The translations under genes and the position numbers were made by a program. A stretch of DNA of 60,344 bases from Deltaproteobacteria bacterium. GTDB lineage: Bacteria > Myxococcota_A > UBA9160 > UBA6930. Where the stretch lies: NCBI GenBank assembly GCA_031387905.1, contig JANNDT010000277.1, positions 1 to 60,344 on the forward strand, written 5' to 3'. Position 1 is the first letter of the stretch. The number at the start of each line of letters is the position of its first letter. Of this stretch, positions 24,652 to 59,288 are shown piece after piece. The notes beneath the pieces were generated by a model, which was given only the letters and a program-made list of their open reading frames with translations, did not search any database and was not told the DNA's origin.

Positions 24652-24678
24652 GCGCGGGGCCTCCTGCGGGGAAGGAAG

Positions 24679-24692: not shown

Positions 24693-24717
24693 ATTCGCGA
24701 AACAAGCCGCAGCGTTC

Positions 24718-33599: not shown

Positions 33600-33620
33600 C
33601 GCGGGGACGTTCCATAACTT
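33600..33620. repeat. Left terminal inverted repeat of the RAYT unit
   Basis: Read directly. It is followed by a tandem ATAACTTC ATAACTTC duplication. Confidence 0.8.
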
Positions 33621-34450
33621 CATAACTTCGCGCGGCGGAGCATCTTCGAGACTGCGGGTTGAGAGACGCCCAAGCGGCGGCCCACCGCGGTCAGCGACAT
33701 GCCGAGTTCCTGCACCGCCGCCCGCGCCAGCATCTCCCGCGCGCGAACCGCCGCGCGCGTCCGAGATCGCGACAGGAGCTCCCCGACCGAGCTCCCGGCA
33801 GCCCGCGCAGCATGGGCGGCAATCGCGTCGAAGTTCGCGCCTTGGAAGTCGGCGGGCGCACGCGTTGGCCTAGGCAGCCGCGGCTTCCAGTCTCGCGGCG
33901 CCGGAACGCGCCGAGCGTTCGCGACGGCTGCATGGGCAGCGGCGGGGTCGCGCTCAAACAGCGCGAGCGTCATCGCAGCCGCCTCGAAGGCGTGCGGTGG
34001 GCGCGCGCCGACGACCGCACCGTGGCCGCACCACGCGTACGCCGCGAGGTCATCCAGCAGCACGAGCTTCGCTTCGACTGGGTTTCGGTGGACGTAGGCG
34101 ACCGCGGCCGCGAGGTACGCGTCGGTGTCGACCACCGAAGACAGAAAGCGATTGTGGAAGACGTGCCCGATGCGACGGTGGCGGTTGTTGAAGTAGACCG
34201 CGTAGCCCGTAGCGAGGCGCCGCATCAGCAGCGACAGGCCGGCGTTACCGGAGCGCAACACCAGGTGGACGTGGTTTGGCATGAGAGCCCAGGCAAGGCA
34301 GAGGCAGCCGAGCTCTTGAATCAAGCGATCGAGGCGGGCGATGAACTCGAGACGGTCTGCGTCGTCGAGAAAGATCCGGTGTCGATCGATTCCTCGGAGT
34401 CGAACGTGATGGGTGACGCCCGGGGCGTCGAAGCGAGGGCCGCGGGGCAT
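33620..34450 (-). CDS. REP-associated tyrosine (Y1, HUH) transposase with a C-terminal DnaA-C-like HTH
   Basis: HUH motif PNHVHLVL, catalytic Tyr region AYVHRNPVEAKLV, and C-terminal LGMSLTAVGRRLGVSQPAVSKMLRRAKL. Confidence 0.85.
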   Translation of the reverse strand: MPRGPRFDAPGVTHHVRLRGIDRHRIFLDDADRLEFIARLDRLIQELGCLCLAWALMPNHVHLVLRSGNAGLSLLMRRLATGYAVYFNNRHRRIGHVFHNRFLSSVVDTDAYLAAAVAYVHRNPVEAKLVLLDDLAAYAWCGHGAVVGARPPHAFEAAAMTLALFERDPAAAHAAVANARRVPAPRDWKPRLPRPTRAPADFQGANFDAIAAHAARAAGSSVGELLSRSRTRAAVRAREMLARAAVQELGMSLTAVGRRLGVSQPAVSKMLRRAKL

Positions 34451-43438: not shown

Positions 43439-44602
43439 ATGCCCTACGCCACTGGCCGCGAGATTCACGACGCCGACGCGCATGTGATGGAGACGCCCGA
43501 TTGGCTCGTGCCTTTCGCCGACCCGGCGATTCGTCCGCGCTTGCCGCAGCTCTATCTCGCGACCACGAGACCCGGCGAGGATCGCTTGATCGACAAGTTC
43601 GCGCGCATGCACGCGGACCCGGCCTATCGCGCGCGCGACGCCGAAGAGATCATGCAGCGCAAGAACTGGGCGGCGACGGGCTCGTTCCTGAAGCACGACC
43701 GCCCGCAGGCGCTCGACTTGTTGGGGTTCAAGAGCCAGCTGTTGTTCAACACTTTCCAGAACGAGACCCTCGGCAAGCTCGAGCACGCGGACGATCTCGA
43801 GCTCGCCTACGGCGTCGCGCGCGCACACAACCGCGCGATGGCGGATTTCTGCGCCGTGGACGCGCGCCTGCTCGCGACGGCCTACGTGCCGCTCGCAGAT
43901 TTCGGGCGCGCCCGAGCGATGGCGGAGGAAGCGCTCGCGCTCGGCGCGAAGGCGCTGCTGATTCCTTCGCGCTGCCCGCGCCATCACTCGCCGAGCCACA
44001 TCGCGTTCGACCCGGTCTGGGCGATTGCGCAGGAAGCGCGCGTGCCGGTGCTGTTCCACGTCGGCGGCGGCGCCCCGCTCTGCTCGCCGAAGTATTTCGA
44101 GAACGGCCTGCCCGCCGAGAAGGACTTCCACGGCGGCGACGAGAACTTCCAAAGCATCGACCACATGGCGATTCCGTTTCCGCCGATGCAAACGCTCTCG
44201 ACCATGATCTTCGACGGCGTTTTCGAGCGGCACCCACTTCTCATGTTCGGCGTGATCGAGCAGGGCGCGCTCTGGTTGCCGAGCTGGATGCGTGCGATGG
44301 ACGCGGCGCTCGAAGCTTATGGCCGGCACGAGCGGCGGCTCGCGAAGCTGCGGCTCAAGCCGAGCGAGTACGTACGGCGGCAGCTGCGCGTGACGCCCTA
44401 CCCGACCGAGGACGTGGGCTGGATCGTGCGCGAGGCGGGCGAGGAGGTGTGCCTGTTCTCCTCCGACTACCCGCACGTCGAAGGCGGGCGCAATCCGCTG
44501 CGGCGCTTCGCGACGACGACGCAGGGGCTCGGCGAGCGCGCGCTCGACCGGTTTTACCGCGCAAACTTCGCGGAGCTGATGGGGCCGCACACGCCCCAAT
44601 AA
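43439..44602 (+). CDS. Amidohydrolase_2 (ACMSD/decarboxylase-like) family protein
   Basis: 387 aa. Motifs: IHDADAHVMETPDW, PVLFHVGGG, LFSSDYPHVEGG. Confidence 0.85.
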   Translation: MPYATGREIHDADAHVMETPDWLVPFADPAIRPRLPQLYLATTRPGEDRLIDKFARMHADPAYRARDAEEIMQRKNWAATGSFLKHDRPQALDLLGFKSQLLFNTFQNETLGKLEHADDLELAYGVARAHNRAMADFCAVDARLLATAYVPLADFGRARAMAEEALALGAKALLIPSRCPRHHSPSHIAFDPVWAIAQEARVPVLFHVGGGAPLCSPKYFENGLPAEKDFHGGDENFQSIDHMAIPFPPMQTLSTMIFDGVFERHPLLMFGVIEQGALWLPSWMRAMDAALEAYGRHERRLAKLRLKPSEYVRRQLRVTPYPTEDVGWIVREAGEEVCLFSSDYPHVEGGRNPLRRFATTTQGLGERALDRFYRANFAELMGPHTPQ

Positions 44603-44614
44603 CAAGGACTGCCA

Positions 44615-45478
44615 GTGGCGAGCACAGCGCAGCAAGTCGATCCGTGGCGCTTCACGGGCACGTTCCTCGAGAACCTGCTCTCGCGCGGCATCCCGAAGGA
44701 GCCGGCGTGGCCGCCGATTCCGTGGACGCCGCTCGCGAAGCCCCTGGCGCAGTGCCGCGTTGCGCTGCTCTCGACCGCGGGCATCAGCCAGCGCGGCGAC
44801 GCGCCGTTCGACATGGAGTACGAGCGCCAGAACCCGACGCGCGGCGATTCCTCGTGGCGGCGGCTGCGCGCGGATTCCAGCCCGGCGACGATCGAGGCGA
44901 ACCACCTGCACATCGACACCAGCTACATCGCGCGCGATCTGAATGTCGCGCTGCCACTCGATCGGCTGCGCGAACTCGCGGCCTTGGGCGAGGTGGGCTC
45001 AGTCGCGCCAAGCCACTACTCGATCATGGGTTATCAGGGCGGCGACTCGTCCGCGCTCGAACAGCGCAGCGCGCCCGAGATCGCGGCGGCGATGAAGAGC
45101 GAAGAGGCCGATCTCGCGATTCTCGTTCCGGTTTGACCGGACTGCTGCCGGTCCGTGGGACTGGTCGCACGGGTGATCGAGGCCGCAGGCATCACGACCG
45201 TCACCTTGAACCCACTCTGGGTGCATCACCTGCGCGTCGGCATGCCGCGGGTCGCGGCGGTGGAGCATCCGTTCGGGCGGCCGATGGGCGATGTCGGCGA
45301 TGCGGAGACGCAGCGCGCCGTGTTGCGCGCGGCGCTCGCTGTGGCGGTGAACGCGCGCGAAGCGGGGCACGTCGAGCACTTGCCGTTCCGCTGGCACGAA
45401 GAACCGGCCGCGACGAAATGGCACCCGGCCGAACCGAGCCCAATCATCGCGTACATGAAGCAGCGCCAACGGGGCTGA
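44615..45478 (+). CDS. GrdB/PrdB-family reductase-like protein with an in-frame TGA at 45134..45136 read as selenocysteine (287 residues)
   Basis: Track ORFs 44615..45136 and 45155..45478 share one frame. Read-through gives LAILVPV-U-PDCCRSVGLVARVIEAAGITTV...EHPFGRPMGD, placing a U-x-x-C motif where the family carries Sec or Cys. Confidence 0.7.
45143..45169 (+). promoter_or_regulatory. Candidate bacterial SECIS hairpin downstream of the UGA
   Basis: CCGGUCC (45148..45154) pairs with GGACUGG (45158..45164), including one G-U pair, around a GUG loop. The stem can be extended through UGC/GCA. The apical loop lies about 19-21 nt after the UGA. Confidence 0.3.
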
Positions 45479-45542: not shown

Positions 45543-46643
45543 GTGCGACCTCTCGTCTCGATCATCGCGCTCGCGCTTCTCATTCCCCTCGCGCTGAGCG
45601 CGTGCGGCCAGGGCCCACCCGGCGGCCCTCCGCAGTTCCCGCCCGCGCCGGTGCAGGTCATCACGGCCGAGGCGCGCAAATTGCCGCGCACCCTAACAGC
45701 CGTGGGTTCGCTCGAGAGCCCGCAGATGACGACCGTCTCGAGCGAAATCGATGGGCGTGTCGAATCGCTCGCGCTGCCCGAGGGCCAGCAGGTGCAGGCG
45801 GGCGCGTCGCTCGCGCGGCTCGACACGAAGACGGTCACCGCCGCGCTCGCCGTGGCGCAGGCGCGGCTGCAGAACGCGACGGATCGCCTCGCGCGGCTCG
45901 AGCCGTTGCGCGCGCAGGGCGTGGCGTCGGAGCAGGCGGTCGACGACGCGAAGGCCGAATTCGATGCGGCCACCGGCGCACACGACGAGGTCGCGACGCG
46001 CCTCGCGAAGCACACCATCCGAGCGCCGTTCGCGGGCACGCTCGGGCTCAAGCAGGTGAACGTCGGGCAGTTCGTGAAGGCGGGCGATCCGATCGTCGAG
46101 ATCACGCCGGCGCACGCGCTCGAGCTGCACTTCGCGGTGCCTCAGCAGTTCGTGCAGGAAGTCGCGGTAGGCCAACCGGTCGAGGGCGTGGTCGGGCGCT
46201 GTCAGCTGCGCTTCGAGGGAATTGTTACGGCGGTCGACCCGCGCGTCGATCCGCGCACGCGCATGGTGGGCCTGCGCGCGGGCGTCACCAAGACGAGCGG
46301 CGAACTCGTGCCGGGCATGGCGGTGCGCGTGCGGCTCGTGGTCGCAGAACTGTCGAACGCGATCGTGCTGCCGCAGGAAGCGATCGTGCGCCAAGGCTCG
46401 CAGCACCTGGTGTTCACGCTCGATGCTGCGAATCAGGCCGTGCCTCACGACGTAACGCTCGGTGAGTTCTTCCTCGACGGCGTGCACGTCGCGAGCGGCA
46501 TCGCCGCGGGCGAGATCGTGGTGGTCGCCGGCCACCAGAAGCTGCGCCCCGGTGCGCAGGCCGCACCGAGCCCGTGGACTGCGGTTGTCAATCCGAACAT
46601 CGACGTCGGGCGTTACGGCCCGGCTGATTGCGACGTGCGGTGA
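45543..46643 (+). CDS. RND efflux periplasmic adaptor (MFP) lipoprotein
   Basis: Lipobox LALSACG, plus barrel-sandwich and alpha-hairpin segments typical of the HlyD_D23 type. Confidence 0.9.
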   Translation: MRPLVSIIALALLIPLALSACGQGPPGGPPQFPPAPVQVITAEARKLPRTLTAVGSLESPQMTTVSSEIDGRVESLALPEGQQVQAGASLARLDTKTVTAALAVAQARLQNATDRLARLEPLRAQGVASEQAVDDAKAEFDAATGAHDEVATRLAKHTIRAPFAGTLGLKQVNVGQFVKAGDPIVEITPAHALELHFAVPQQFVQEVAVGQPVEGVVGRCQLRFEGIVTAVDPRVDPRTRMVGLRAGVTKTSGELVPGMAVRVRLVVAELSNAIVLPQEAIVRQGSQHLVFTLDAANQAVPHDVTLGEFFLDGVHVASGIAAGEIVVVAGHQKLRPGAQAAPSPWTAVVNPNIDVGRYGPADCDVR

Positions 46644-49600
46644 GGCTCTCCGATATCTCGATCGAGCGGCCCGTCTTCGCGACGGTGATGAGCCTGCTGA
46701 TCCTGGTCGCCGGTGTGGCGGCGTTCTTCTCACTGCCGATTCGCGAATTGCCGGACGTGGATTCGCCGGTCGTTGGGATCACCACGCTCTACGTCGGCGC
46801 GAGCCCGGAGACGGTGGAGGCGAGCGTCACCAAGCCGCTCGAAGACGTGATGAACGGCATCGAGGGCATCCGCAACATCGATTCGCTCTCCGCGTTCGGC
46901 GTCTCGACGATCAACGTGCACTTCGTCGCGGACCGCGATGTCGATACCGCCGCCACCGACGTCTCGAACGCGATCCAGCGCGCGCTCGGCGATCTGCCGC
47001 AGGAAGCCGAGCGCCCGATCGTGCGCAAGTCAGGCGCCAATAACACTCCGATCATGTTCATCAACGTGTTCGGCGACTCGCACTCGGCAGTCGATCGCAC
47101 GGACGTCGCGGATCGCTTGGTGAAAACGCCACTTCAGCTATTGCCCGGCGTCTCGCAGGCGATCATCAGCGGCGAGCGGCGTTACGCGATGCGCATCTGG
47201 CTCGACCCGGCGCGCATGGCGGCGCTGCACGTCGACCCGTCCGATGTCCGCCGCGCGCTCCAGGAGAGCAACCTCCAGCTACCCGCCGGCGAAGTGGAGG
47301 CCGCCACGCGCAAGTTCACGATCAATGCGGACGCGCGGCTCGAGAGCCCGGAGGCGTTCGGCGCGATCGTGATCCGCGAAGAAGCCGAGAACCCGGTGCG
47401 CATCCGCGACGTCGGCTGGGTCGAACTCGGCAGCGAGAATTATCAGATGATCACGCGCTTCACGGCGCGCGACACGGTGGGCGTCGGCATCGTGCGCCAA
47501 TCGCGCGCGAACGAGCTCGAAGTTTCCGACGCGGTGCACGCGCGGCTCGAAGAAGTGAAGAAGACGATGCCCGAAGGCTTCGAGACGAGCGTCGCCGTCG
47601 ACTGGACCCAGTACGTGCGCGACTCGCTGCGCGAAGTTTCCTTCACGCTCGCAATCGCGTTCGCGGTGGTCGTGCTCGTGAACCTCATCTTCTTGCAGTC
47701 GAAGACAGCGACTCTCGTCGCGAGCGTCGCGATCCCGATCAGTCTGATCGGCACCTTCGCCGGCATGGCTCTGCTCGGTTTCTCCCTGAACATGCTCACG
47801 CTGCTCGGGCTCGTGCTCTCGATCGGGCTGGTGGTGGACGACGCGATCGTCGTGCTCGAAAACGTGTATCGCCGCCAGGAACTCGGCGAGCCGATGCTGC
47901 AAGCTGCGCGGAACGGCGCGCGCGAAGTGGGCTTCCCGGTGCTCGCCACTACCGCGGCGCTCGTCGCCGTAATGATTCCGCTGGGCATGATGTCGGGCGA
48001 CACGGGCCGGCTCTTCCGCGAGTTCGCGCTGGCCGTCGCCGTCGCGATCGCGATCTCGGCGTTCGTGGCGCTCACGATCGTGCCGATGGTCTGCTCGCGC
48101 TGGCTGCAAGTGAAGCAGCGCAGCGACCGCGTCTCGCGCGCGATCAACGCGAACGTCGACGGCGCGCGCGACGCCTACGACCGCGTGCTCGCGTTCGCGC
48201 TCGCTCACCGCCGCGGCGTGATGACGATCTTTCTCGCGATGCTCGTCGCCACGGTGGGCATCTTCCGAGTGCTGCCGCAAACGTTCCTGCCGATCGAGGA
48301 CCGCGGTCGATTCATTACGGCGATCCGCGCGCCCGAGGGCTCCACCATCGCCTACACGCGCGCGGTGCTCGACAAAGTCGAGAAGACGCTGCTCGCGACG
48401 CCCGAGGTGGACACCTTCTTCGCCGCGATCGGCATCGGCTTCGGCGCGCCGGCGAGCTCGTCGACCGGCATCGTGTTCTCCTCGATGAAGGACTGGGGCG
48501 AGCGCGAGCGTTCCCAACAAGAGGTGGTCGCCGAACTGTTCCCGAAGTTCATGGCGATCCCCGAGGCGCTGGTGTTCGTGTTCAGCCCGTCGTCGTTGCA
48601 GCGCCAGAGCAACGCCGACGTCGAGATCGCGCTCACCAGCAGCAATGCGTCCCTCGACGAGTTTGCCGTCGCGATGAACGCGATCCTCGGGCGCGTGCGC
48701 CAGCTGCCGATGCTCGTGAACGTCGACAGCGACTTGCGGCTCGCGAACCCGCAGCTCGACATCCACTTCGATCGCGAGCGCGCCGCAGATCTCGGCGTGC
48801 CCGTGAGCGCCGTCTCACAAGCGCTCGCGATGCTCGTCTCGCAGGGCAAGGCCGACGATTTCATCCTGCGCAACGAACAATACGACGTGGTGATGGCGCT
48901 CGAATCGCCGTTTCGCAGCGTGCCCGAGCAACTCGGCCAGATTCACGTGCGCGCACGCGGCGGCGCCATGATTCCGCTCTCGGCGATGATCGAGGCGAGC
49001 CCGCAGATCGGGCCGACCTTCTTGAATCATTATGACTTGCAGCGCTCGGCGACTCTGACGGCGAACCTCGCCCCGGGCGCCGCGCTCGGCCCTGCCCTCG
49101 CAGCCGCCGAGCAGATCGTCGACGAAGAACTTCCGGACGGCTTCAGCAAGGCGCTGCGCGGCACCTCGCGCGAGTTCCGCGAATCCGGGGCCGCCATCTA
49201 CTTCACCTTCGCGCTCGCACTGCTCGTCATCTACCTCGTGCTCGCCGCGCAGTTCGAGAGCTTCCTCCACCCGTTCACCGTGTTGTTATCGGTGCCGCTC
49301 GCGACGCTCGGCGCGCTGCTCTCGCTGCTCGCCACCGGCAACACGATGAACCTCTACAGCCAGATCGGGATCATCCTGCTCGTCGGCCTCGTCACGAAGA
49401 ACGCAATCCTGCTCGTCGACTTCGCGAACCAGGAGCGCGCCCGCGGCGCGACCTTGATCGACGCGCTGCGCCGCGCCGGGCACACGCGCTTCCGGCCAAT
49501 TCTGATGACGAGCGCCACCTCGATCCTCGGCGCAATTCCGCTCGTCGTGCCGATGGGCCCCGGCGCCGAGAGCCGCGCCGCGATCGGCACCGCCGTAATT

Positions 49601-49726
49601 GGAGGACTCTTGTTCAGCACCGTGTTCACGCTCGTGATGATTCCGGTGTTCCATTACGGCGTGGTGACGCTCGCCGAGCGGCTCGGCCTGAAGACGATTC
49701 CGCCGCGCGTGGAGTTCGAGGGGTGA
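46640..49726 (+). CDS. RND efflux permease (AcrB/HAE1-like)
   Basis: MRLSDISIERPVFATVMSLLI. A GTGA overlap joins it to the MFP stop. 1028 aa with two large periplasmic loops and 12 TM segments. Confidence 0.95.
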   Translation: MRLSDISIERPVFATVMSLLILVAGVAAFFSLPIRELPDVDSPVVGITTLYVGASPETVEASVTKPLEDVMNGIEGIRNIDSLSAFGVSTINVHFVADRDVDTAATDVSNAIQRALGDLPQEAERPIVRKSGANNTPIMFINVFGDSHSAVDRTDVADRLVKTPLQLLPGVSQAIISGERRYAMRIWLDPARMAALHVDPSDVRRALQESNLQLPAGEVEAATRKFTINADARLESPEAFGAIVIREEAENPVRIRDVGWVELGSENYQMITRFTARDTVGVGIVRQSRANELEVSDAVHARLEEVKKTMPEGFETSVAVDWTQYVRDSLREVSFTLAIAFAVVVLVNLIFLQSKTATLVASVAIPISLIGTFAGMALLGFSLNMLTLLGLVLSIGLVVDDAIVVLENVYRRQELGEPMLQAARNGAREVGFPVLATTAALVAVMIPLGMMSGDTGRLFREFALAVAVAIAISAFVALTIVPMVCSRWLQVKQRSDRVSRAINANVDGARDAYDRVLAFALAHRRGVMTIFLAMLVATVGIFRVLPQTFLPIEDRGRFITAIRAPEGSTIAYTRAVLDKVEKTLLATPEVDTFFAAIGIGFGAPASSSTGIVFSSMKDWGERERSQQEVVAELFPKFMAIPEALVFVFSPSSLQRQSNADVEIALTSSNASLDEFAVAMNAILGRVRQLPMLVNVDSDLRLANPQLDIHFDRERAADLGVPVSAVSQALAMLVSQGKADDFILRNEQYDVVMALESPFRSVPEQLGQIHVRARGGAMIPLSAMIEASPQIGPTFLNHYDLQRSATLTANLAPGAALGPALAAAEQIVDEELPDGFSKALRGTSREFRESGAAIYFTFALALLVIYLVLAAQFESFLHPFTVLLSVPLATLGALLSLLATGNTMNLYSQIGIILLVGLVTKNAILLVDFANQERARGATLIDALRRAGHTRFRPILMTSATSILGAIPLVVPMGPGAESRAAIGTAVIGGLLFSTVFTLVMIPVFHYGVVTLAERLGLKTIPPRVEFEG

Positions 49727-49780: not shown

Positions 49781-50515
49781 CTAGATGTAGAAGGGCCAGC
49801 CCCCGGCGAGAGTTCCCGCAGACAGACCCTGCGATGCGTCGAGGCTCGGCAAGAAGAAGTACGCGCTTCCTTTGACGTGCACGAAGCGCGGAAGCTTCCA
49901 CGCGAACGTCGGGGCGCTCGCTCCGGGCATCAGGAGCTTCCCGGTGCCGTCGTGCGCCCCGATCCAAGGATCTTTGTCCTCAGCGAGCGTGAGCGCAGAC
50001 GACGAGAGCGTGCTGTTGATCCAGTTCGCCTGCACGTACTCGAACTGGCGTGGGCGCCGACCGGACAGGCGTGCCCCTTGTTGTCGCCGGAGTAGCGGAA
50101 GTTGTTGTTACGGCTCGCAGCGTCGGCCAGCGCGAGACGTCCGCACTCGGGGCCAGGATCAGTGGCGCGCCGCTGCGCCAGCCCCCGCAGCTCCCCGCGT
50201 GCGCCGCGGCCGCCTGCGGGATCCTCCGCTTGTACTACGCCGTGAACCTGCGGCGTCTCGGCTTCCCCTCAGCTTCCGTGCCGCGCGTGTCCATCGCGAA
50301 CGCCATCGTATGCTCGGTCGTCACCCTCTACAAAGAACTCAGAGTGCCTGGGTGCCTCACGGACGTTGGCGCGGAGGGGGCACGCCCCGCGCTTGCGAGA
50401 CCGCGCACACACCGGTCGGTGCAGAGTGTGGCCTCGCAACGCTCACGACCACGGATCCCATAATCGGCGCCCACGACGGACCCAGAGGGCTTATGATTCC
50501 CGGCGGAATGGGCAT
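49781..50515 (-). pseudogene. Decayed DyP-type peroxidase gene (at least two frameshifts plus an internal deletion)
   Basis: DyP hallmarks are spread over three frames. These are PPGIISP near the ATG at 50515, GWRSGAPLILAP, NNNFRYSGDNKGHACPVGAHA, then QFEYVQANWINS...DPWIGAHDG...FVHVKGSAYFFLPSLDA directly after. The segment that normally follows the proximal His is missing. Confidence 0.7.
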
Positions 50516-50632
50516 GACTTCGAGTGGAACCCGCCGCACTCACTGAGAACGGGCGGCTGCGGGCCGCGGGGGCGAGGGGCGTCAAGCACGCGGCCGGGCG
50601 GACCGCGCTCCGTACCGAGGGGAAGCGACGCG

Positions 50633-53600
50633 GTGAACTGCGCCGACTGCCAGCACGAGAACTCCGCAAATGCGCGCTTCTGCGAGAGCTGCGGCGCGCG
50701 CCTGCAGCGAATGTGCGTGGACTGCGGTGAGCCGTTGCCGCCAGCGGCGCGCTTCTGCTCGCAGTGCGGTCGGTTCGTCGCCGAGGCCGGAGCAAAGGCG
50801 CTGAGCTCGCCCGCGGCTTCACCACAGGATCTCCCGCTTGCGCCTTCCGACGGAGAGCGGCGCCAGATCACGGCGATGTTCTGCGACCTCGTCGACTCGA
50901 CCGAGCTGAGCGAGCGCCTCGACGGCGAGGATTTCCGCGACCTGATCGCCACCTACCACGAGACCTGCTCCGCCGCGGTGAAGAGATTCGACGGGTACGT
51001 GGCGCAGCTGCTCGGCGACGGTGTGCTCGCTTATTTCGGCTTCCCACGGGCGCACGAGGACGACGCGCAGCGAGCGATTCGCGCGGGACTGGAGATCCAG
51101 TCAGCGCTCGCAGCTGCCAACCTGTCTCGCAGCGCCGCGGCGTTGCCCCAGGTCTTCGCCCGCATCGGCATCCACAGCGGCCCCGTGGTTGTCAGTCGGC
51201 TCGGCGGCGACGGGCGCCACGAGATGCTCGCACTCGGCGAGACGGTCAACGTCGCCGCGCGACTCCAAGCGGTCGCCTCGCCCGGCGGCTTGGTCGTGAC
51301 TGACGCGACCCTTCGTCTCGCGCCCGGCGTGTTCGTCACGCGCGATCTCGGTACGCCCGTCCTGAAGGGCATCTCGCTTCCAGTGCGCGTACATGCCGTC
51401 GAGCGCGCGCTCGGCAGCGCGGCCCGTCGCGTCGGGTTTCCGAAGGCGCCGCTCCTCGGGAGGGACCACGAACTCGACATGCTGCTCGCGCGCTGGGAGC
51501 GCGCCCTGGACGGACAGGGCCAGGTTGTCGCCGTCTCGGGCGAGCCGGGCATCGGGAAATCGCGGTTGCTAGCCGACTTCCGCGAGCGGATCGCTAGCGC
51601 GCCACACAGCGCGATTGAGCTTTACTGCTCTCCCTACGTGGCAGGGAGCGCGTTCCAGCCCTCTGTCGAAGCGTTCGAGACCGGGCTTGGCTTCGAGGAA
51701 AGCGACGAGCCAGAGGCGCGACTCGCGAAACTCGAGCAAGGCATGGCCCAGTTACCCGGCGTCGAGTTGACCGACGTGGTGCCCTACCTCGCTGCGCTCC
51801 TCAATCTGCCGCCGTCGCCGCGCTTCCCTCTCGAGCACATGAGCGTCGACGTTCAGCGCGAGAGGACACTGCAAGCGCTCCTCGCGCCATTGCTCGCGAT
51901 GGAGCGGATTCAGCCGGTCGTGATCGTCTTTGAAGATCTGCACTGGGCAGATCAGTCGTCGCTCGAGCTGATCGGGCGGCTCATCGATCAGACGCCAACG
52001 TTGCGCATGATGCTCGTGCTGACATACAGGCCTTCGTTCGCGCCGCCTTGGCCGCTCACACGTTCCTTCGTGACTCCGCTATCGCTCTCCCGCCTCGGAC
52101 GTCGCGCGATCCGAGCGTTGATCGAGGCGTGTGCGGGCCGGGCGCTTCCGGATCGAGTGCTGGAGGACATCGCTGCGCGCGCCGATGGAGTCCCGCTGTT
52201 CGCAGAGGAGCTCGCCCGTGCAGTGGTTGCGTCCGCTGTCGTGACCGAGAGCGGCGCGGCGTACGAGCCGTTCGGGCAACACGAGGACATCTCGATCCCA
52301 ACGACCTTGCAAGGCTCGCTCATGGCGCGCCTCGACCGTCTGAGCCAGGCGCGCCCAGTCGCGCAACTCGGATCAATACTCGGCCGAGAGTTCTCCTTCG
52401 GGCTGATCGAAGCGGTCTCCGACTTGGACGCCTCTTCACTGCGCAGCGGGCTCGACCAACTCGTAGCGGCGGACGTCCTGTACGTGCGCGGTTCGCCGCC
52501 CGTAGCGAGCTACACGTTCAAGCACGTGTTGCTCCAGGACACGGCGTACGCATCGCAGCTGAAGAGCCGCCGGCGTGAGTTGCATGCGCGCGCCGCGATA
52601 GCACTCGAAGAGCGCTTCCCCATGCGCGTCGCAGCCGAGCCGCAGGTCGTTGCGCGGCATTGCTCGGAGGGGGGACTCACGGCGCGCGCGATCGCGCACT
52701 TCGCGATTGCCGGACAACAGGCGATCGCGCGCCTCGCGAACCCTGAGGCGGCCGATCACTACGAGCAAGCGCTCGCGCTCTTGGCGACCCTGCCGGAGGA
52801 CACGGCGCGAAATCAGCAGGAGCTGACGCTGCGACTCGCGCTCGCAGGCCCGCTCTCAGCGCGCGGATACGACCACCCCAGCGTGCTCGCGAACTTCGCG
52901 CGAGCCGAGGCACTGTGCGAGGGCCTCGGCAGCGGGCCGGATCGGCTGCCCGGCCTCGTGAGTCTTGCTGTGTTGCACCAAGCGCGGGGAGATCTCGCTC
53001 GCGCGGGCCGTTGGGCGCGCGAGTTGCTGGCCGTCGCGGACGGCTTGGGTCTCGCGCCACTCCAACTGGCGGCTCACGCCATGCTCGGAGCGGTAACCGC
53101 GGGGTTCGGTTCCATCCCAGATTCGTGCGACCACTACGCACGCGTGTACTCGATCGCGTCGAGCCACGTAATCCCGCCACCGGTCGCGGCTTTCGACCTG
53201 GACATCGCGTCGGGCTTATCAGGCGGCTACGCGATCAGCCTCGTGCTGGCAGGCCGCCCGGATCAGGCGTTTCTAGAGCTCGACCGGGGGCTGACCCGCG
53301 CACGCGAGATCGGGCACCCGCACACGCTCGCTCTCGCGCTCTCGACTGGAGTGGTCGCCGCACACCTGAGCGAGGATCATGATCGCTTGCTCGCGCTCTC
53401 CGAGGAATGCTTGCAGGTGACGCGCGGGCGCGGCTTCGTACAGAACGAAGCGATCGCCGTCGCGTTCGGGGGATGGGCGCGCGTAATGCTCGGAGACGAC
53501 TCGGGTGCGGCGGCCTTCGACACGGGCCTCTCGAGGTTGCACGACTCTGGTGCAGTAGGAGGGGTGCACCAGTTCTACGTCGCCGCGACCGAAATCGCGA

Positions 53601-53971
53601 TGAAGCGCAGTCGGTTCGATGAGGCGCGAGCGCGGCTCGCCAACCTCGCCGGGTGGGTGGACCGCCTTGGGATGAAGACAATCGCCGCCAATGTTCCCAT
53701 GCTGGACGCCGAACTTCTGCTCGCCGAGCGCGGCGACCCGTTCGAGGCTGAGCGGCTGCTACTCGAGTCGATCGAAGGTTGGCGCACCGTCTTTCGTTCG
53801 CCGTGGATGGAGTTGCGCTCGGCCTTGCGATTGGCCGAGATCGCGCCGCGCACGGGCAACCTGAAGAGAGAGCGCGAGCGGCTCGCGGCGCTCGTTGGCG
53901 AGTTCAGAGAGGGTTTTGACACGAAACGACTTCGCGAAGCGAAGCGGTTGCTCGTGTCATTGGATTCCTGA
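50633..53971 (+). CDS. Double zinc-ribbon / class III adenylate-guanylate cyclase / AAA(STAND) ATPase / TPR multidomain protein
   Basis: The GTG at 50633 follows GAGGGGA. Motifs: VNCADCQHENSANARFCESCGARLQRMCVDCGEPLPPAARFCSQCG, cyclase core ITAMFCDLVDSTELSE...LLGDGVLAYFGFP, P-loop GEPGIGKS, and a long C-terminal helical repeat region. Confidence 0.85.
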   Translation: MNCADCQHENSANARFCESCGARLQRMCVDCGEPLPPAARFCSQCGRFVAEAGAKALSSPAASPQDLPLAPSDGERRQITAMFCDLVDSTELSERLDGEDFRDLIATYHETCSAAVKRFDGYVAQLLGDGVLAYFGFPRAHEDDAQRAIRAGLEIQSALAAANLSRSAAALPQVFARIGIHSGPVVVSRLGGDGRHEMLALGETVNVAARLQAVASPGGLVVTDATLRLAPGVFVTRDLGTPVLKGISLPVRVHAVERALGSAARRVGFPKAPLLGRDHELDMLLARWERALDGQGQVVAVSGEPGIGKSRLLADFRERIASAPHSAIELYCSPYVAGSAFQPSVEAFETGLGFEESDEPEARLAKLEQGMAQLPGVELTDVVPYLAALLNLPPSPRFPLEHMSVDVQRERTLQALLAPLLAMERIQPVVIVFEDLHWADQSSLELIGRLIDQTPTLRMMLVLTYRPSFAPPWPLTRSFVTPLSLSRLGRRAIRALIEACAGRALPDRVLEDIAARADGVPLFAEELARAVVASAVVTESGAAYEPFGQHEDISIPTTLQGSLMARLDRLSQARPVAQLGSILGREFSFGLIEAVSDLDASSLRSGLDQLVAADVLYVRGSPPVASYTFKHVLLQDTAYASQLKSRRRELHARAAIALEERFPMRVAAEPQVVARHCSEGGLTARAIAHFAIAGQQAIARLANPEAADHYEQALALLATLPEDTARNQQELTLRLALAGPLSARGYDHPSVLANFARAEALCEGLGSGPDRLPGLVSLAVLHQARGDLARAGRWARELLAVADGLGLAPLQLAAHAMLGAVTAGFGSIPDSCDHYARVYSIASSHVIPPPVAAFDLDIASGLSGGYAISLVLAGRPDQAFLELDRGLTRAREIGHPHTLALALSTGVVAAHLSEDHDRLLALSEECLQVTRGRGFVQNEAIAVAFGGWARVMLGDDSGAAAFDTGLSRLHDSGAVGGVHQFYVAATEIAMKRSRFDEARARLANLAGWVDRLGMKTIAANVPMLDAELLLAERGDPFEAERLLLESIEGWRTVFRSPWMELRSALRLAEIAPRTGNLKRERERLAALVGEFREGFDTKRLREAKRLLVSLDS

Positions 53972-54016
53972 ACTCGGTTCGAGCATCGGGTTCGATCGAG
54001 CTAGGGCTGCGGGCCG

Positions 54017-54997
54017 ATGAACAGCGAGCACACAGCAATGACGAAAATCGTATTTGGCTCGTGCATGCATGTAGTAGACAACGCCACGCAGAGCGTTTGG
54101 AACGAAGCCGCCGCCCACAACCCGGATTGGCTAATACTGGGCGGCGACAACATTTACATGAACTACGGCCCGGCTTGGTTTGGACCGCGCAGATGGTCTC
54201 CGCATGAGTTCGCAGCGAAGATGCTGGAACGCTACACGGCTCAATTCTCTGTTCCGTCATTTCGGGCGCTGATCGAGCCCATTCCCATTGGACAGGTGAT
54301 TGGAGTCTGGGATGATCACGATTTTGGTTGGAACAACTGTTACGGAACCTCGATCAAGGACCAGATGCCCGCCAAGAGCCTCATCGCGCATGCGATGTTT
54401 CACCACTACTTCGCGGCACTCAACGTGCGGCCCCTGCCGGCATCTCTGCCCTCGCTGTCATTGGCCGGCCTACCCCACCTGATCGACTCGACGAAGGAGG
54501 CTTACCGTGCGCTCGATCTCGGCCCACTGCGGGTTTTGCTTTGCGACGGGCGGAGCTATCGCGAAGAGAATCAGAGCAATCCGGCCGGCGCCTCCCTTCT
54601 CGGTACCCAACAGGAGTCATGGCTGCTTACGGAGATCGCTAACGCCAGCAAGCCAGTCCTGATCGTCTCCGGTTCGACGATGACCAGCGATGGGGGAGAC
54701 CAAAGCTGGGACCACTTCGCAGATTTCTTCAAGTTGAAATTTCTACCAGCCACGAAGTCAAAGGTCGTGATGCTTCTGGGCGGCGATGTGCACGAAAATC
54801 GACTGCCTACGCCTCCGAATGATTTTCCTGTGGAGATAATCTCGTCTGGCGCTGCCATTGGTAAGTGTTTTCGTAAGCGAAATTTTGGAGTTCTCGAAGT
54901 GTCGTCTGCTGACGCGACTATCCGTCTCTTCAAGAAGGGCGTCGTTCAGTACTCCGGGCATCTCGACCTTGCGAGCGGCGCGTTTGCCCTCACGTAA
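54017..54997 (+). CDS. PhoD-like metallophosphatase (326 aa, no signal peptide), compositionally atypical
   Basis: Motifs: LILGGDNIYMN, GVWDDHDFGWNN, GGDVHEN. A hand count of the first 130 nt gives about 55% GC. Confidence 0.8.
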   Translation: MNSEHTAMTKIVFGSCMHVVDNATQSVWNEAAAHNPDWLILGGDNIYMNYGPAWFGPRRWSPHEFAAKMLERYTAQFSVPSFRALIEPIPIGQVIGVWDDHDFGWNNCYGTSIKDQMPAKSLIAHAMFHHYFAALNVRPLPASLPSLSLAGLPHLIDSTKEAYRALDLGPLRVLLCDGRSYREENQSNPAGASLLGTQQESWLLTEIANASKPVLIVSGSTMTSDGGDQSWDHFADFFKLKFLPATKSKVVMLLGGDVHENRLPTPPNDFPVEIISSGAAIGKCFRKRNFGVLEVSSADATIRLFKKGVVQYSGHLDLASGAFALT

Positions 54998-55112
54998 CGC
55001 TGGGGGACTAGGGAGCGACTGCCCGGCAGCCACGCGAGACACACCGGCACGCCATGGTTCGCCACTGATGCTCGTCTTCATCCGGGACTTCTGAGCGATT
55101 AGGGAACGCTTC

Positions 55113-57639: not shown

Positions 57640-58443
57640 TCACCGATCGTCAGCGACTAACACCCCGTCCTCGACCCATCTCCCCAGCACGCTCGCAGCG
57701 AACGCAGCCCCGGCTTCGTCGGCGCGCTCTTCTGCGGCCAGCGCGCACAGCTCGCCGAAGCGCACACCGTGCTGCGCGCGCGCGAGCAGCGTGGCCTCGC
57801 TCGCTTCGAGCGCGCGGTGCATCACTCGCTCTTCGCGCCGCCACACGAACACGCACTCGGCTGCGGCCGCGAGCGTCGCGAGCGCGAGCGGCTGCTCGGC
57901 GTCGTGGGCGGCGCGCACGGCGCGAACGGGCCACGCGAGCGTGAGCAGCTGCGCACCAGGAACTACGGCCAGCGCGAGCTGGTCCCACAGTTCGGGCGGC
58001 AGCGCGGTGAGATCGGCGCGCGTGAGCAGCTTGCTGTCGACTGCGTCGAACGCGTCGGTGACGGCGAGCTCGAAGCGCGCGAGGTCTGCGGCCCAGGGCG
58101 CGCTCAGGCGAAGCTCTGCGGCGGCCGGCGCGGCGTGCTCTGCGATGAACGCGGGGAGGCGCGCGCCGGCGTAGCGCAGCGAGGGGTGCTGCGAAGGATT
58201 CGCGTGCAGGTACGCAGCAGCGAGCGCGGTGAAACAGGCGTCGCCGAGCGCGCGTTTCAGCGCGGGGAAGTCGTCGCCGAGCGCGGAAATGATGCGCGCG
58301 CTGTAAGCGTTGCGATAGACGCCGAGACGCTCCGCCGCACTCGCGCGCGCATCGCCAAACAGCCCGGGCGTCGCGGCCGGGTCTTCGCGCGCCATCAGCC
58401 AGCCGGCAAAAGCGCCCTGCGCGCGCGTAAGCGGCTCGCTCAC
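57640..58443 (-). CDS. DUF2063 protein (BufC/MbnC-like RiPP precursor-binding partner)
   Basis: RLGVYRNAYSARIISALGDDFPALKRALGDACFTALAAAYL. The GTG start overlaps the DUF692 stop (GTGA). Confidence 0.8.
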   Translation of the reverse strand: MSEPLTRAQGAFAGWLMAREDPAATPGLFGDARASAAERLGVYRNAYSARIISALGDDFPALKRALGDACFTALAAAYLHANPSQHPSLRYAGARLPAFIAEHAAPAAAELRLSAPWAADLARFELAVTDAFDAVDSKLLTRADLTALPPELWDQLALAVVPGAQLLTLAWPVRAVRAAHDAEQPLALATLAAAAECVFVWRREERVMHRALEASEATLLARAQHGVRFGELCALAAEERADEAGAAFAASVLGRWVEDGVLVADDR

Positions 58444-59288
58444 GCCGCTACTTCCGCGGTGCCAGGACGGCGTACTTCAGCGCCGCACACACGCTCGAGG
58501 ATCTCCCGCGCGCGCGCCGCTTCCGCGACGACGCGCTCCCACGGCGGGATGCGGTCATCCCACTCGATGAGCGTCGAGACGGGGCCGAGCCGCGCGAGCG
58601 TGCGCTCGAACAGCGCCCAGACTTCGTCGCGCACCGGGTAGTCGTGCGTGTCGATGAGCAGCGCGCCGGCTTCGCTCGGGCCCGCGAGGTGAATCTGGAA
58701 GACGCGGGCGGGATCGAGCGCGGCGATTGCGGCGTCGGCGTCGATGCCGTGATTATGCGCGTTCACGAACAAGTTGTTGAGGTCGAGCAGAATGCCGCAG
58801 TCGGCCTCCGCCGAAATTGCGTCCAGGAACTCTCCCTCGCTCATGGCGTCGTGCGTGAAGCGCACGTAGCTCGAGACGTTCTCGATCGCGATGCGGCGGC
58901 CGAGCCGCTCTTGCACTTCGCGAATACGCGCGGCCACGTGCCGCACGGCTTCCTCGGTGTGCGGCAGCGGCAGTAAATCGTGCAGGTGCGCGCCCCTGTG
59001 GGCGGTCCAGCACAGGTGATCGGAGAGCCACGCGGGCTGAAAACGGCCGGCGAGCGCGGCGAGTTCGCCGAGGTACTTCGCATCGAGCGGATCGCTCGCG
59101 CCGAGATCGAGCGAGACGCCGTGCAGCACGAGCGGCGCGAGTTCGCGTACCTCGCCGAGAATGCGCAGCGGGCGGCCGCCAGGGATTAGGTAGTTCTCGG
59201 AGATCGCTTCGAAGAAATCTGCGCCGGCGCCGCCGCACGCGGCGATCTCGGCGTAGTGGCGCGGGCGCAGGCCGATGCCGACGCCCAG
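58440..59288 (-). CDS. DUF692 / MNIO (multinuclear non-heme iron oxidative) enzyme, BufB/MbnB-like
   Basis: Motifs: GVGIGLRPRHY, DFFEAISENY, LVLHGVSLDLG, IENVSSY, TLIEWDD. The conserved N-terminal motifs lie upstream of the first ATG/GTG/TTG (59129), so a CTG at 59288 preceded by GAGG-N8 is proposed. The start is uncertain. Confidence 0.75.
   Translation of the reverse strand: MGVGIGLRPRHYAEIAACGGAGADFFEAISENYLIPGGRPLRILGEVRELAPLVLHGVSLDLGASDPLDAKYLGELAALAGRFQPAWLSDHLCWTAHRGAHLHDLLPLPHTEEAVRHVAARIREVQERLGRRIAIENVSSYVRFTHDAMSEGEFLDAISAEADCGILLDLNNLFVNAHNHGIDADAAIAALDPARVFQIHLAGPSEAGALLIDTHDYPVRDEVWALFERTLARLGPVSTLIEWDDRIPPWERVVAEAARAREILERVCGAEVRRPGTAEVAA

What the first reader, a model, noticed from the sequence alone, without database searches (positions are those of the whole stretch)
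44615..45478. Orphan GrdB/PrdB-family selenoprotein: one gene split in the ORF track by an in-frame TGA
Seen: ORFs 44615..45136 and 45155..45478 are in the same frame. They are separated only by TGA (45134..45136) and six sense codons. Read-through gives ...ADLAILVPV-U-PDCCRSVGLVARVIEAAGITTVTL...AAVEHPFGRPMGD.... The second ORF has no RBS.

Established knowledge: selenoprotein B-type reductase subunits (glycine/sarcosine/betaine/D-proline reductases) carry Sec in a U-x-x-C motif just before an ...E.AGI... segment, and Cys-containing homologues exist.

Inference: this is a single 287-residue selenoprotein. There are no grdA, grdCDE, prdA or thioredoxin genes nearby. It lies between an amidohydrolase_2 gene and an RND pump, so its substrate and partners are unknown.
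Basis: partly seen in the sequence, partly recalled or inferred. Interest (0 to 1): 0.8.

Follow-up and report, generated by a model that had tools for sequence, protein, structure and literature searches.

The report
Stand-alone PrdB-like selenoprotein gene
The two adjacent ORFs are one 287-residue gene whose internal TGA almost certainly encodes selenocysteine; it belongs to a widespread PrdB-like selenoprotein family that has been catalogued since 2005 but never characterised, so it is a correct but fairly ordinary find.

Summary
ORFs 44615-45136 and 45155-45478 share a frame and are split only by TGA 45134-45136 and six sense codons.

Comparative evidence points to selenocysteine:
- All 77 related GTDB loci that cover the site in frame have TGA at this codon (never TAA or TAG).
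- The downstream frame is conserved, with 49-80% amino-acid identity and mismatches of 0.20/0.14/0.49 at codon positions 1/2/3.
- Full-length homologues carry Cys at this position (ACPLCC against VUPDCC).
- A hairpin (45143-45169) follows the UGA. It is 95% base-paired across 70 distinct sequences, has compensatory changes, and its synonymous sites are frozen only within the stem.

The protein is PrdB-sized with an invariant U-P-x-C motif. It scores below the PrdB and GrdB equivalog cut-offs. No prdA, grdA, grdE, prdC or thioredoxin gene lies in the window, and no neighbour is conserved across the related loci. It is therefore not a D-proline or glycine reductase subunit. It is more likely a self-contained Sec/Cys redox enzyme of unknown substrate.

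"Proline reductase PrdB" homologues with UxxC are already listed as abundant environmental selenoproteins (Sargasso Sea 2005, GOS 2008, Anaeromyxobacter 2006). This is a new member of a known kind. Sec machinery could not be checked in a 60-kb window.

The parts
44604..44608 (+). Shine-Dalgarno-like AAGGA, 6 nt upstream of the GTG start. It lies just after the TAA stop (44600-44602) of the upstream Amidohydro_2 gene.
   Evidence: Read directly from the sequence. The start is supported by the N-terminus of the closest homologue, P0001 (MASEPQQVDPWRF).
44615..45133 (+). Coding part 1: residues 1-173 of the PrdB-like selenoprotein. Invariant motifs are D62-x-P-F-D-M67, G77-D78, H97-L-H99 and Y135.
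   Evidence: Pfam GRDB scores 35 bits (cut-off 22), matching residues 35-171.
45134..45136 (+). In-frame UGA, predicted to encode selenocysteine (residue 174).
   Evidence: TGA is at the homologous codon in 77/77 loci that cover the site in frame. Cys occupies this position in full-length homologues (P0078 ACPLCC, P0363 NCPDCC and others).
45134..45148 (+). Redox motif U174-P175-D176-C177-C178. U, P and C177 are invariant; C178 is present in 75/78 sequences.
   Evidence: In the AF2 model of the Cys homologue P0078, the equivalent Cys179 sits in the loop after a beta-strand, and Cys182/183 sit at the N-terminus of a helix.
45143..45169 (+). SECIS-type hairpin in the mRNA. The outer stem is UGC/GCA. 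The core stem is GCCGGUCC/GGACUGGU (45147-45154 paired with 45158-45165). The apical loop is GUG (45155-45157), 18 nt after the UGA. That loop GUG is the 'start codon' of the spurious second ORF.
   Evidence: Predicted in the MFE and centroid folds and present in nearly all orthologs. 95.3% of cells are paired against 24-46% in slid controls, with compensatory G-C to A-U and U-A to A-U changes. Third-codon positions inside the stem are at least 90% conserved, while those in the loop, the bulge and outside vary.
45137..45475 (+). Coding part 2: residues 175-287. Invariant residues include G182, R186, E189, G192, R212-x-A-A-x-E217-x-P-x-G-R222, W260, W269 and P271.
   Evidence: It is 92-93% identical to the nearest C-terminal fragments (P0240, P0241). 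Mismatches at codon positions 1/2/3 are 0.20/0.14/0.49.
45476..45478 (+). True stop codon (TGA).
   Evidence: Orthologs terminate within a few codons of this point, using TAG (36), TGA (30) or TAA (10).

Best explanation
Window 44615-45478 (+) is one gene for a 287-residue cytosolic selenoprotein. It belongs to the PrdB-like branch of the GRDB superfamily.

Shown:
- The internal UGA (45134-45136) is conserved as TGA in all comparable orthologs.
- It aligns with Cys in full-length homologues.
- A conserved hairpin (45143-45169) follows it, with its apical loop 18 nt downstream of the UGA.

Inferred from the established bacterial Sec pathway: SelB-GTP-Sec-tRNA(Sec) binds this SECIS hairpin on the translating mRNA and inserts selenocysteine at residue 174, instead of terminating.

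Inferred for the protein: Sec174 and the invariant Cys177 (U-P-x-C, at the start of a helix) form a redox-active selenol/thiol pair. The selenolate attacks a substrate, or accepts an oxidising equivalent. Cys177 then resolves the adduct to a selenenyl-sulfide, which a general thiol reductant re-reduces. This follows the proposed chemistry of PrdB and GrdB.

No pyruvoyl partner (PrdA or GrdE), no GrdA or PrdC and no conserved neighbour of any kind accompanies the gene, here or in the related genomes. It is therefore not the B subunit of a Stickland D-proline or glycine reductase. It is a stand-alone enzyme of unknown substrate.
For: Gene structure.

TGA conservation: TGA at the same codon in 77/77 loci from GTDB species that cover the site in frame, mostly Myxococcota or 'Deltaproteobacteria' MAGs, plus some labelled Gammaproteobacteria, Binatia and others. 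The downstream frame has 49-80% amino-acid identity. The internal codon is always TGA, whereas true terminators are TAG 36, TGA 30, TAA 10. Mismatches downstream at codon positions 1/2/3 are 0.20/0.14/0.49.

Residues before the supposed restart are conserved: PDCCRS, which lies before the GTG at 45155, is nearly invariant.

Cys homologues: P0078 and 14 other full-length proteins of 287-299 aa. More distant full-length relatives have C at the Sec column and mostly keep the Cys at U+3.

Hairpin: 95.3% paired against 24-46% for slid partners. Two pairs show double-sided compensatory changes, one coupled to a Ser-to-Thr codon change. 0/500 shuffles reach the observed covariation score. Synonymous sites are frozen only in the stem.

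Family: PrdB TIGR04483 E = 4e-45 over residues 30-261 against model positions 13-235 of 238; Pfam GRDB is above its cut-off.

No relaxation of the second half: the N-terminal part is 94% and the C-terminal part 92-93% identical to the nearest relatives.

Stand-alone status: the largest neighbour family occurs in only 17 of 77 loci analysed (76 related plus the window). Nearest neighbours are heterogeneous: MFS, SnoaL, YqeY, PQQ-ADH, LLM, SDR, P450 and others.

Prior catalogues list PrdB homologues as UxxC selenoproteins (PMC1088965, PMC2398784, PMC1794560).
Against: - No Sec machinery (selA, selB, selC, selD) lies in the 60-kb window or in about 1.3 Mb of flanks of related loci. Its presence in the source genome is therefore untested.
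- The hairpin's folding energy in the single sequence is no better than GC-matched shuffles (z = 0.0). Most stem pairs are invariant and lie in highly conserved codons, so covariation rests on two pairs and six sequences.
- The catalytic mechanism is by analogy only. There is no solved structure for any GRDB-family member, no biochemical data for the orphan clade, and no informative gene context.
Confidence: 0.85

Rival explanations
1. It is the genuine selenoprotein B subunit of a D-proline (or glycine/sarcosine/betaine) reductase, and its PrdA/GrdE, PrdC or GrdA partners are encoded elsewhere in the genome.
For: The best HMM is PrdB TIGR04483 (E = 4e-45, nearly full-length match). The protein is PrdB-sized and has the UxxC motif. 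IMG labels the fragments 'D-proline reductase (dithiol) PrdB'.
Against: The score of 154 bits is far below the 300-bit equivalog cut-off. GrdB, GrdF and GrdH models match only their C-terminal halves and far below their cut-offs. No prd or grd partner lies in the 60-kb window. No partner family recurs within about 6 kb of the gene in 76 related loci, whereas prd and grd genes are normally operonic (PMC13188914). The hosts are mostly Myxococcota-type MAGs, and the flanks carry oxygen-dependent enzymes (P450, TauD, luciferase-like monooxygenases), not Stickland fermentation genes.
Confidence: 0.07
2. In this organism the UGA is read as a stop. A truncated 173-residue product is made and the downstream 113 codons are untranslated, either as a relic or as a separately initiated 107-residue protein starting at GTG 45155.
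For: Sec machinery was not found in the window. ORF callers and databases split the gene in two. GTG 45155 is a formal start codon.
Against: The internal stop is TGA in 77/77 orthologs, against a mixed use of terminators. The six codons between the TGA and the GTG encode the nearly invariant PDCCRS, which includes the resolving Cys. No SD-like sequence precedes 45155. The downstream frame is under purifying selection and is as conserved as the upstream half. Continuous Cys-containing homologues exist. GTG 45155 is the apical loop of the conserved hairpin.
Confidence: 0.05
3. The TGA is a sequencing or assembly error, or a recent nonsense mutation (pseudogene), in a gene that normally has Cys (TGC or TGT) there.
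For: TGA differs from TGC or TGT by one base, and Cys forms of the family exist.
Against: The identical feature occurs in 77 independent assemblies from different studies and lineages, and in hundreds of metagenomic protein clusters that are truncated at the same residue.
Confidence: 0.01

Closest known systems
D-proline reductase selenoprotein PrdB (Clostridium sticklandii, Clostridioides difficile; NCBIfam TIGR04483)
   Same: Best-scoring family, with a near end-to-end match to the 238-position model (E = 4e-45). Both are single-domain proteins of about 240-290 residues. Both have Sec in a UxxC motif about two-thirds of the way along, encoded by an in-frame UGA.
   Different: The score of 154 bits is half the equivalog cut-off. 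There is no prdA (pyruvoyl proprotein) and no prdC, prdD, prdE or prdF nearby, here or in the related loci. The hosts are Myxococcota-type bacteria rather than Stickland-fermenting clostridia. Extra N- and C-terminal residues are present, including a conserved W-H-P...S-P-I tail. D-proline is therefore unlikely to be the substrate.
Glycine/sarcosine/betaine reductase component B selenoproteins GrdB, GrdF and GrdH (Pfam PF07355 GRDB; TIGR01917, TIGR01918)
   Same: Same superfamily: the Pfam GRDB hit is above its cut-off. The Sec sits at the homologous position, followed by a Cys three residues later.
   Different: Grd proteins are about 430-435 residues with an extra N-terminal half. The window protein matches only model positions of about 261-421 and scores 43-52 bits against cut-offs of 65-800. 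The motif is UxxCC rather than the UxxCxxC reported for GrdB (PMC13188914). No grdA, grdE, grdC, grdD or trx genes are present.
'Proline reductase (PrdB/PR)' homologues catalogued in environmental and deltaproteobacterial selenoproteomes (Zhang and Gladyshev: Sargasso Sea 2005, GOS 2008; Zhang et al. 2006)
   Same: Same description: pfam07355, UxxC, Sec-containing and abundant outside clostridia. There were 42 sequences in the Sargasso Sea data, and 235 Sec and 110 Cys forms in GOS. The family is listed in Anaeromyxobacter dehalogenans and Geobacter uraniumreducens and is flagged as a homologue of thiol-based oxidoreductases. The window gene is most simply another member of this set.
   Different: Those catalogues lump everything under 'proline reductase' and do not separate the partner-less clade. 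I did not align the window protein directly to their sequences. Membership is inferred from the shared Pfam family, motif and taxonomy.
Cys-containing full-length homologues (for example P0078, 299 aa; NCBI name 'glycine/sarcosine/betaine reductase selenoprotein B family protein', Desulfomonilia and Deltaproteobacteria MAGs)
   Same: 46% identity over 97% of the read-through protein, with the same length and motifs. ACPLCCRSVGLVAR aligns with VUPDCCRSVGLVAR.
   Different: Cys replaces Sec, so the genes are called as a single ORF. They are a small minority among close relatives: 15 full-length proteins among the 120 best hits to P0078.

Membership tests
Bacterial selenoprotein gene (UGA-Sec with a bacterial SECIS) | In-frame UGA aligning with Cys (or Sec) in homologues | tested here: met
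   The column holds U in 77 orthologs and C in P0078. It holds C in P0363, P0367, P0369, P0370, P0373, P0379, P0392, P0400 and P0409.
Bacterial selenoprotein gene (UGA-Sec with a bacterial SECIS) | The UGA, and the coding capacity downstream in the same frame, are conserved among orthologs | tested here: met
   77/77 loci have TGA. Downstream amino-acid identity is 49-80%. Codon-position mismatches are 0.20/0.14/0.49, and true terminators are mixed TAG, TGA and TAA.
Bacterial selenoprotein gene (UGA-Sec with a bacterial SECIS) | A stem-loop immediately 3' of the UGA with a G-containing apical loop some 16-37 nt downstream (bSECISearch-type consensus, recalled from memory) | tested here: met
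   The hairpin spans 45143-45169 with loop GUG 18 nt after the UGA. It is 95.3% paired across 70 distinct sequences, and two pairs show compensatory changes. Caveats: the single-sequence energy has z = 0, and no Rfam model matches.
Bacterial selenoprotein gene (UGA-Sec with a bacterial SECIS) | selA, selB, selC (tRNA-Sec) and selD present in the same genome | not testable with these tools
   Only 60 kb of the genome is available. It has no tRNA and no sel gene among the annotated ORFs. No tRNA-Sec lies in the flanks of the 80 related loci.
Bacterial selenoprotein gene (UGA-Sec with a bacterial SECIS) | Selenium actually incorporated into a full-length product | not testable with these tools
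   Needs 75Se labelling or mass spectrometry.
GRDB superfamily (Pfam PF07355) | HMM score at or above the gathering threshold | tested here: met
   35 bits against a cut-off of 22, over residues 35-171 and model positions 214-345 of 347. The model ends at the Sec column.
D-proline reductase PrdB (TIGR04483 equivalog) | HMM score at or above the curated equivalog cut-off | tested here: not met
   154.1 bits against a cut-off of 300.
D-proline reductase PrdB (TIGR04483 equivalog) | Sec in a UxxC motif | tested here: met
   U174-P-D-C177 is invariant. The motif is given as UxxC for PrdB in PMC2398784 and PMC13188914.
D-proline reductase PrdB (TIGR04483 equivalog) | Encoded with prdA (pyruvoyl proprotein) and other prd genes (prdC, prdD, prdE, prdF) | tested here: not met
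   None in the window. No recurrent partner lies within about 6 kb in 76 related loci. Distant genomic locations were not searched.
D-proline reductase PrdB (TIGR04483 equivalog) | Reduces D-proline to 5-aminovalerate | not testable with these tools
   Needs a biochemical assay.
Glycine/sarcosine/betaine reductase protein B (GrdB, GrdF, GrdH) | HMM score at or above the curated cut-offs, and an architecture of about 430 aa | tested here: not met
   TIGR01917: 42.7 against 602. TIGR01918: 45.9 against 65.45. GrdH: 51.8 against 775. GrdF: 45.3 against 800. Only model positions of about 261-421 match, and the protein is 287 aa.
Glycine/sarcosine/betaine reductase protein B (GrdB, GrdF, GrdH) | Operon with grdA, grdE, grdC, grdD and trx genes | tested here: not met
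   Absent from the window, and absent from the recurrent neighbours of related loci.

The most novel reading that the evidence does not exclude
The partner-less PrdB-like clade (relatives in 244 stretches of GTDB species genomes, nearly all Sec forms among the close relatives, mostly Myxococcota-type lineages) may be a self-sufficient selenoenzyme. Its chemistry would be unrelated to Stickland amino-acid reduction. For example, it could be a Sec-dependent reductase that cleaves a C-N, C-S or C-halogen bond, or a dedicated redox or repair protein, working without any pyruvoyl subunit. The usual annotation 'D-proline reductase PrdB' for hundreds of environmental sequences would then be functionally wrong.
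Probability: 0.5. Interest if true: 0.55.

Novelty: new member of a known kind. Interest (0 to 1): 0.3.

Why it matters
Practical value. This is a clean example of a selenoprotein gene that ORF callers systematically split into a 'PrdB' fragment of about 172 aa and an unannotated fragment of about 107 aa. Even the Pfam GRDB model stops at the Sec column. Merging the halves would correct hundreds of database entries.

Biological value. The family is abundant in environmental bacteria and retains Sec far more often than Cys among close relatives. Yet it has no PrdA-like partner and no conserved gene context, so its substrate and physiological role are unknown. Any experimental handle would address a gap that has been open since the Sargasso Sea selenoproteome of 2005. 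Examples are a U174C variant, partner pull-down, or phylogenetic profiling.

For this particular window, however, nothing goes beyond membership of that already catalogued family.

Tried and rejected
The Cys homologue P0078 was used instead.
2. The PDB sequence search found no hit at E <= 1. Foldseek of the high-confidence AF2 model of P0078 (pLDDT 94) found nothing significant (best E = 0.02, TM 0.34). The fold gave no functional lead.
3. Rfam gave no family at gathering scores for the whole window. Only chance-level hits appeared around the hairpin at E <= 10.
4. Single-sequence folding energy of the hairpin region is not distinguishable from shuffles (z = 0.0). Energy alone was rejected as evidence.
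5. Synteny led nowhere. Window neighbours (Amidohydro_2, the RND pump and others) are not conserved next to the gene elsewhere. Clustering of about 1,550 flanking ORFs found no partner family.
6. Sec machinery was not found: no tRNA in the window, no tRNA-Sec in 80 flanks, and no sel genes among the window ORFs.
7. Other same-frame TGA junctions in the window (350-352 and 24718-24720) were examined as possible further selenoproteins and rejected. They are ordinary boundaries between complete, unrelated genes: an RND pump C-terminus next to a POR-family oxidoreductase, and a luciferase-like gene next to a ChsH2-like OB-fold gene.
8. Domain fusions in longer relatives, looked at for functional hints, showed only an HTH fusion and unannotated extensions.
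9. The promoter and terminator scan around the gene found nothing.
10. Literature searches for 'PrdB-like' and 'GrdB-like' orphan proteins found nothing relevant.
Full report
**1. Observation**

A 173-codon ORF starts at GTG 44615 and ends at TGA 45134-45136. Six sense codons follow (CCG GAC TGC TGC CGG TCC = PDCCRS). Then comes the GTG at 45155, which a mechanical ORF finder takes as the start of a 107-codon ORF ending at TGA 45476-45478. Everything is in one frame. Read-through gives 287 residues. AAGGA lies 6 nt upstream of 44615, and nothing comparable precedes 45155. Both halves have the third-position GC bias of real genes in this 68% GC window: GC3 is 0.87 and 0.84.

**2. Is the TGA a sense codon?**

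A search of 5.8 billion proteins with the read-through sequence (Sec replaced by Cys) gave 962 hits. Of the best 120, 119 are proteins of 169-198 residues covering only 56-60% of the query, and the ones inspected end in ...LALLAPV. One hit, P0078 (299 aa, 46% identity, 97% coverage), runs straight through with ...TPACPLCCRSVGLVAR... where the window has ...VPV-TGA-PDCCRSVGLVAR.... A search with the C-terminal 113 residues gave 842 hits. The best 120 are nearly all stand-alone fragments of about 105-116 residues. Gene callers therefore split this family systematically.

A scan of one genome per GTDB species found 244 stretches that encode a relative, and 80 loci were fetched. I located the homologous codon in each. 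All 77 loci that cover the position in frame have TGA there, and the same frame continues with 49-80% amino-acid identity to the window's C-terminal part. The exceptions are two contig ends (L061, L071) and one frameshifted contig (L069). L003 duplicates L001.

The internal codon is TGA in 77 of 77 loci, whereas the true terminators of the same genes are TAG (36), TGA (30) and TAA (10). The 60 codons downstream differ from the window at codon positions 1/2/3 with frequencies 0.20/0.14/0.49, which is the signature of a translated frame under purifying selection. The six codons between the TGA and the supposed restart GTG encode the almost invariant PDCCRS. The window's two halves are about equally close to their nearest relatives: 94% for the first half and 92-93% for the second.

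TGA is also the commonest ordinary stop in the window, so a reassigned genetic code is not an option. More distant full-length relatives carry Cys in this column (NCPDCC, GCAICH, GCWMCH, TCPFCT and others), and most keep the Cys three residues later. The TGA therefore sits in a Sec/Cys column of a U-x-x-C motif. In a 78-sequence alignment, U174, P175 and C177 are invariant, and C178 is present in 75.

**3. SECIS element**

RNAfold places a hairpin just after the UGA. The core stem is GCCGGUCC/GGACUGGU with a GUG loop, and a UGC/GCA outer stem extends it (window 45143-45169). On its own the region folds no better than GC-matched shuffles (z = 0.0), so the energy is not evidence. The comparison is.

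- The same hairpin is predicted in nearly all orthologs.
- On an ungapped alignment of 75 sequences (70 distinct), 95.3% of pair cells are standard pairs, against 24-46% when the 3' partners are slid by 1-3 columns.
- Two pairs show double-sided compensatory changes. One is G-C to A-U in four sequences (Arg CGG to CGA together with Leu CUG to UUG). The other is U-A to A-U in two sequences (Ser UCC to Thr ACC together with Gly GGA to GGU).
- 0 of 500 shuffles reach the observed covariation score.
- Third-codon positions inside the stem are at least 90% conserved (alignment columns 15, 18, 21, 27, 30). This includes the otherwise unusual GGA glycine codon in GC-rich genomes.
- Third positions in the loop (column 24), the bulge (column 33) and outside the stem vary freely.

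The apical loop lies 18 nt after the UGA and contains G. This fits the bacterial SECIS consensus as I recall it from bSECISearch. The loop GUG is the spurious 'start codon' at 45155. Rfam has no matching model.

**4. What kind of protein?**

Pfam GRDB matches above its threshold: 35 bits against 22, over residues 35-171. The model ends at the Sec column (positions 345-347 of 347, also seen). This explains why the C-terminal fragments carry no Pfam label.

NCBIfam's best hit is PrdB (TIGR04483): E = 4e-45, residues 30-261 against model positions 13-235 of 238. At 154 bits it is well under the 300-bit equivalog cut-off. The GrdB, GrdF, GrdH and family models match only their C-terminal parts and fall far below their cut-offs. 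The protein is thus PrdB-like in size and architecture, but it is neither an equivalog of PrdB nor a GrdB.

AlphaFold2 on the Cys homologue P0078, with a 104-row alignment, gave pLDDT 94 and pTM 0.91. The fold is alpha/beta. The Sec-equivalent Cys179 lies in the loop after a beta-strand, and Cys182/183 lie at the N-terminus of the next helix. That geometry is typical of redox-active CxxC and UxxC centres (inference). No PDB sequence or fold match exists.

At 50% clustering the wider superfamily has 1,334 representative clusters with E <= 0.001. They include many Cys forms, some forms with non-Cys residues, and several Sec-truncated clusters.

**5. Context**

In the window, the gene lies 12 nt after an Amidohydro_2 gene (43439-44602). 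An RND membrane-fusion protein and pump follow it (45543-49726). Upstream are EXPERA-family, ferritin-like, P450, alpha/beta-hydrolase, pseudouridine synthase and amidinotransferase-like genes.

The rest of the 60 kb is dominated by catabolic genes: acyl-CoA dehydrogenases, thiolase-like and ChsH2-like proteins, enoyl-CoA hydratase, luciferase-like monooxygenase, CoA-transferase, TauD and SDRs. There is also a TetR regulator, an IS200-like transposase, an adenylate-cyclase/AAA/TPR protein and an MbnB/DUF2063 pair. The window has no prdA, prdC, grdA, grdE, grdC, grdD or thioredoxin gene, no sel gene and no tRNA.

None of the window's neighbours is syntenic in the related loci. I clustered about 1,550 flanking ORFs from the window and 76 related loci (within 6-6.5 kb of the gene). 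Apart from the two gene halves and their antisense shadows, the largest families are generic paralog-rich ones: SDR in 17 loci, luciferase-like in 13, Zn-ADH in 10, P450 in 9. The immediate neighbours are heterogeneous: MFS, SnoaL, YqeY, PQQ-ADH, IPMS, DUF748, acyl-CoA synthetase and carboxylase. No tRNA-Sec lies in any flank. The gene is a loner throughout the family.

**6. Mechanism**

*Shown:* one gene; a conserved UGA in a Sec/Cys column; a conserved, covarying hairpin at SECIS distance; an invariant U-P-x-C motif.

*Inferred from the established bacterial pathway:* SelB-GTP-Sec-tRNA(Sec) binds the hairpin and decodes UGA 45134-45136 as Sec174, giving a 287-residue protein.

*Inferred by analogy with PrdB and GrdB chemistry (PMC13188914) and from the motif geometry:* the Sec174 selenolate is the nucleophilic or redox centre. 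Cys177 resolves the adduct to a selenenyl-sulfide, and a general thiol system recycles it.

The pyruvoyl subunit that activates the substrate in D-proline and glycine reductases is not encoded near the gene in the window or in any related locus examined. I therefore conclude that this clade does not act as a Stickland reductase subunit. It is most likely a stand-alone Sec/Cys oxidoreductase or reductase of unknown substrate.

**7. Comparison with what is known, and novelty**

- 'Proline reductase PrdB' homologues with UxxC (pfam07355) were the third most abundant selenoprotein family in the Sargasso Sea data, with 42 sequences (PMC1088965).
- They were among the top families in GOS, with 235 Sec and 110 Cys forms (PMC2398784).
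- A 'proline reductase' selenoprotein is listed for the myxobacterium Anaeromyxobacter dehalogenans and for Geobacter uraniumreducens, flagged as a homologue of thiol-based oxidoreductases (PMC1794560).
- It is also listed in a deltaproteobacterial worm symbiont (PMC1976440).
- IMG labels both fragments 'D-proline reductase (dithiol) PrdB'. NCBI labels some 'glycine/sarcosine/betaine reductase selenoprotein B family protein'.

The window gene is thus a new member of a known, catalogued but biochemically uncharacterised kind. I found no paper that singles out the partner-less clade.

**8. Verdict**

Confidence is about 0.85 for the full best explanation; the single-selenoprotein-gene core alone I would put at about 0.9. 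Confidence in the specific chemistry is lower. Interest is modest (0.3). The find is correct and tidy, and it highlights a systematic annotation error and an open functional question, but a selenoprotein specialist would not be surprised by it.

The main untested point is whether the source genome carries Sec machinery.

Noticed in passing
window 44615-45133 (Pfam match); also P0369-P0462: The Pfam GRDB model (PF07355, 347 positions) always ends at positions 345-347, exactly at the Sec/Cys column. It seems to have been built from Sec-truncated sequences. As a result, the roughly 110-residue C-terminal halves of these proteins carry no Pfam domain in databases.
   Followed up: partly
protein P0448, residues 255-314: A distant GRDB-family relative gives a weak, sub-threshold hit to the Pfam 'UGSC family' (PF24696; E = 9e-4, 19.8 bits against a cut-off of 25). 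The hit spans its Cys motif. UGSC-containing proteins are another abundant environmental selenoprotein family, so the two may be distantly related around the Sec site. The window protein itself gives no such hit.
   Followed up: no
L072, L077, L078 (Myxococcota MAGs), at the homologous TGA: A divergent subclade has U-P-Q-C-Q-L-T-A-G-L instead of U-P-D-C-C-R-S-V-G-L. It lacks the second Cys and has a different downstream nucleotide sequence, so its SECIS hairpin must differ. It was left out of the covariation alignment.
   Followed up: partly
L069 10001-10850 (bin labelled Chloroflexia): This is the only related locus where the C-terminal half is out of frame with the N-terminal half. It looks like a frameshift, probably an assembly error in a long-read MAG.
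   Followed up: no
window 57640-59129 (-) and 59726-60097 (-): An MbnB/TglH/ChrH-family gene (DUF692 type, 289 bits) overlaps by 4 nt with a DUF2063 gene. This is a pair typical of RiPP-modification or related systems. A small ORF nearby hits the N-terminal domain of nitrile hydratase beta.
   Followed up: no
window 22639-25749 (-): A cluster of a luciferase-like monooxygenase, two ChsH2-like OB-fold proteins and a thiolase-like protein resembles steroid or lipid side-chain degradation modules. Acyl-CoA dehydrogenases, an acyl-CoA synthetase and an enoyl-CoA hydratase lie nearby. The TGA at 24718-24720 is in frame with the next gene but is an ordinary gene boundary.
   Followed up: partly
window 33620-34450 (-): An IS200-like Y1 transposase domain is fused to a DnaA-C/HTH-like C-terminal region. 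It sits beside a TetR regulator and may be a mobile or domesticated element.
   Followed up: no
window 54000-55000: GC drops to 0.56-0.57, against about 0.68 for the window, over a PhoD-like phosphatase ORF (54017-54997). The region lies just after a 1,201-residue zinc-ribbon/adenylate-cyclase/AAA/TPR protein (50366-53971). It may be recently acquired DNA.
   Followed up: no
window 56-352 and 392-3871 (+): A second same-frame pair of ORFs is separated by TGA (350-352). It turned out to be the C-terminal end of an RND pump followed by an unrelated POR/TPP/DUF6537 (indolepyruvate-ferredoxin-oxidoreductase-like) gene. It is not a selenoprotein.
   Followed up: yes
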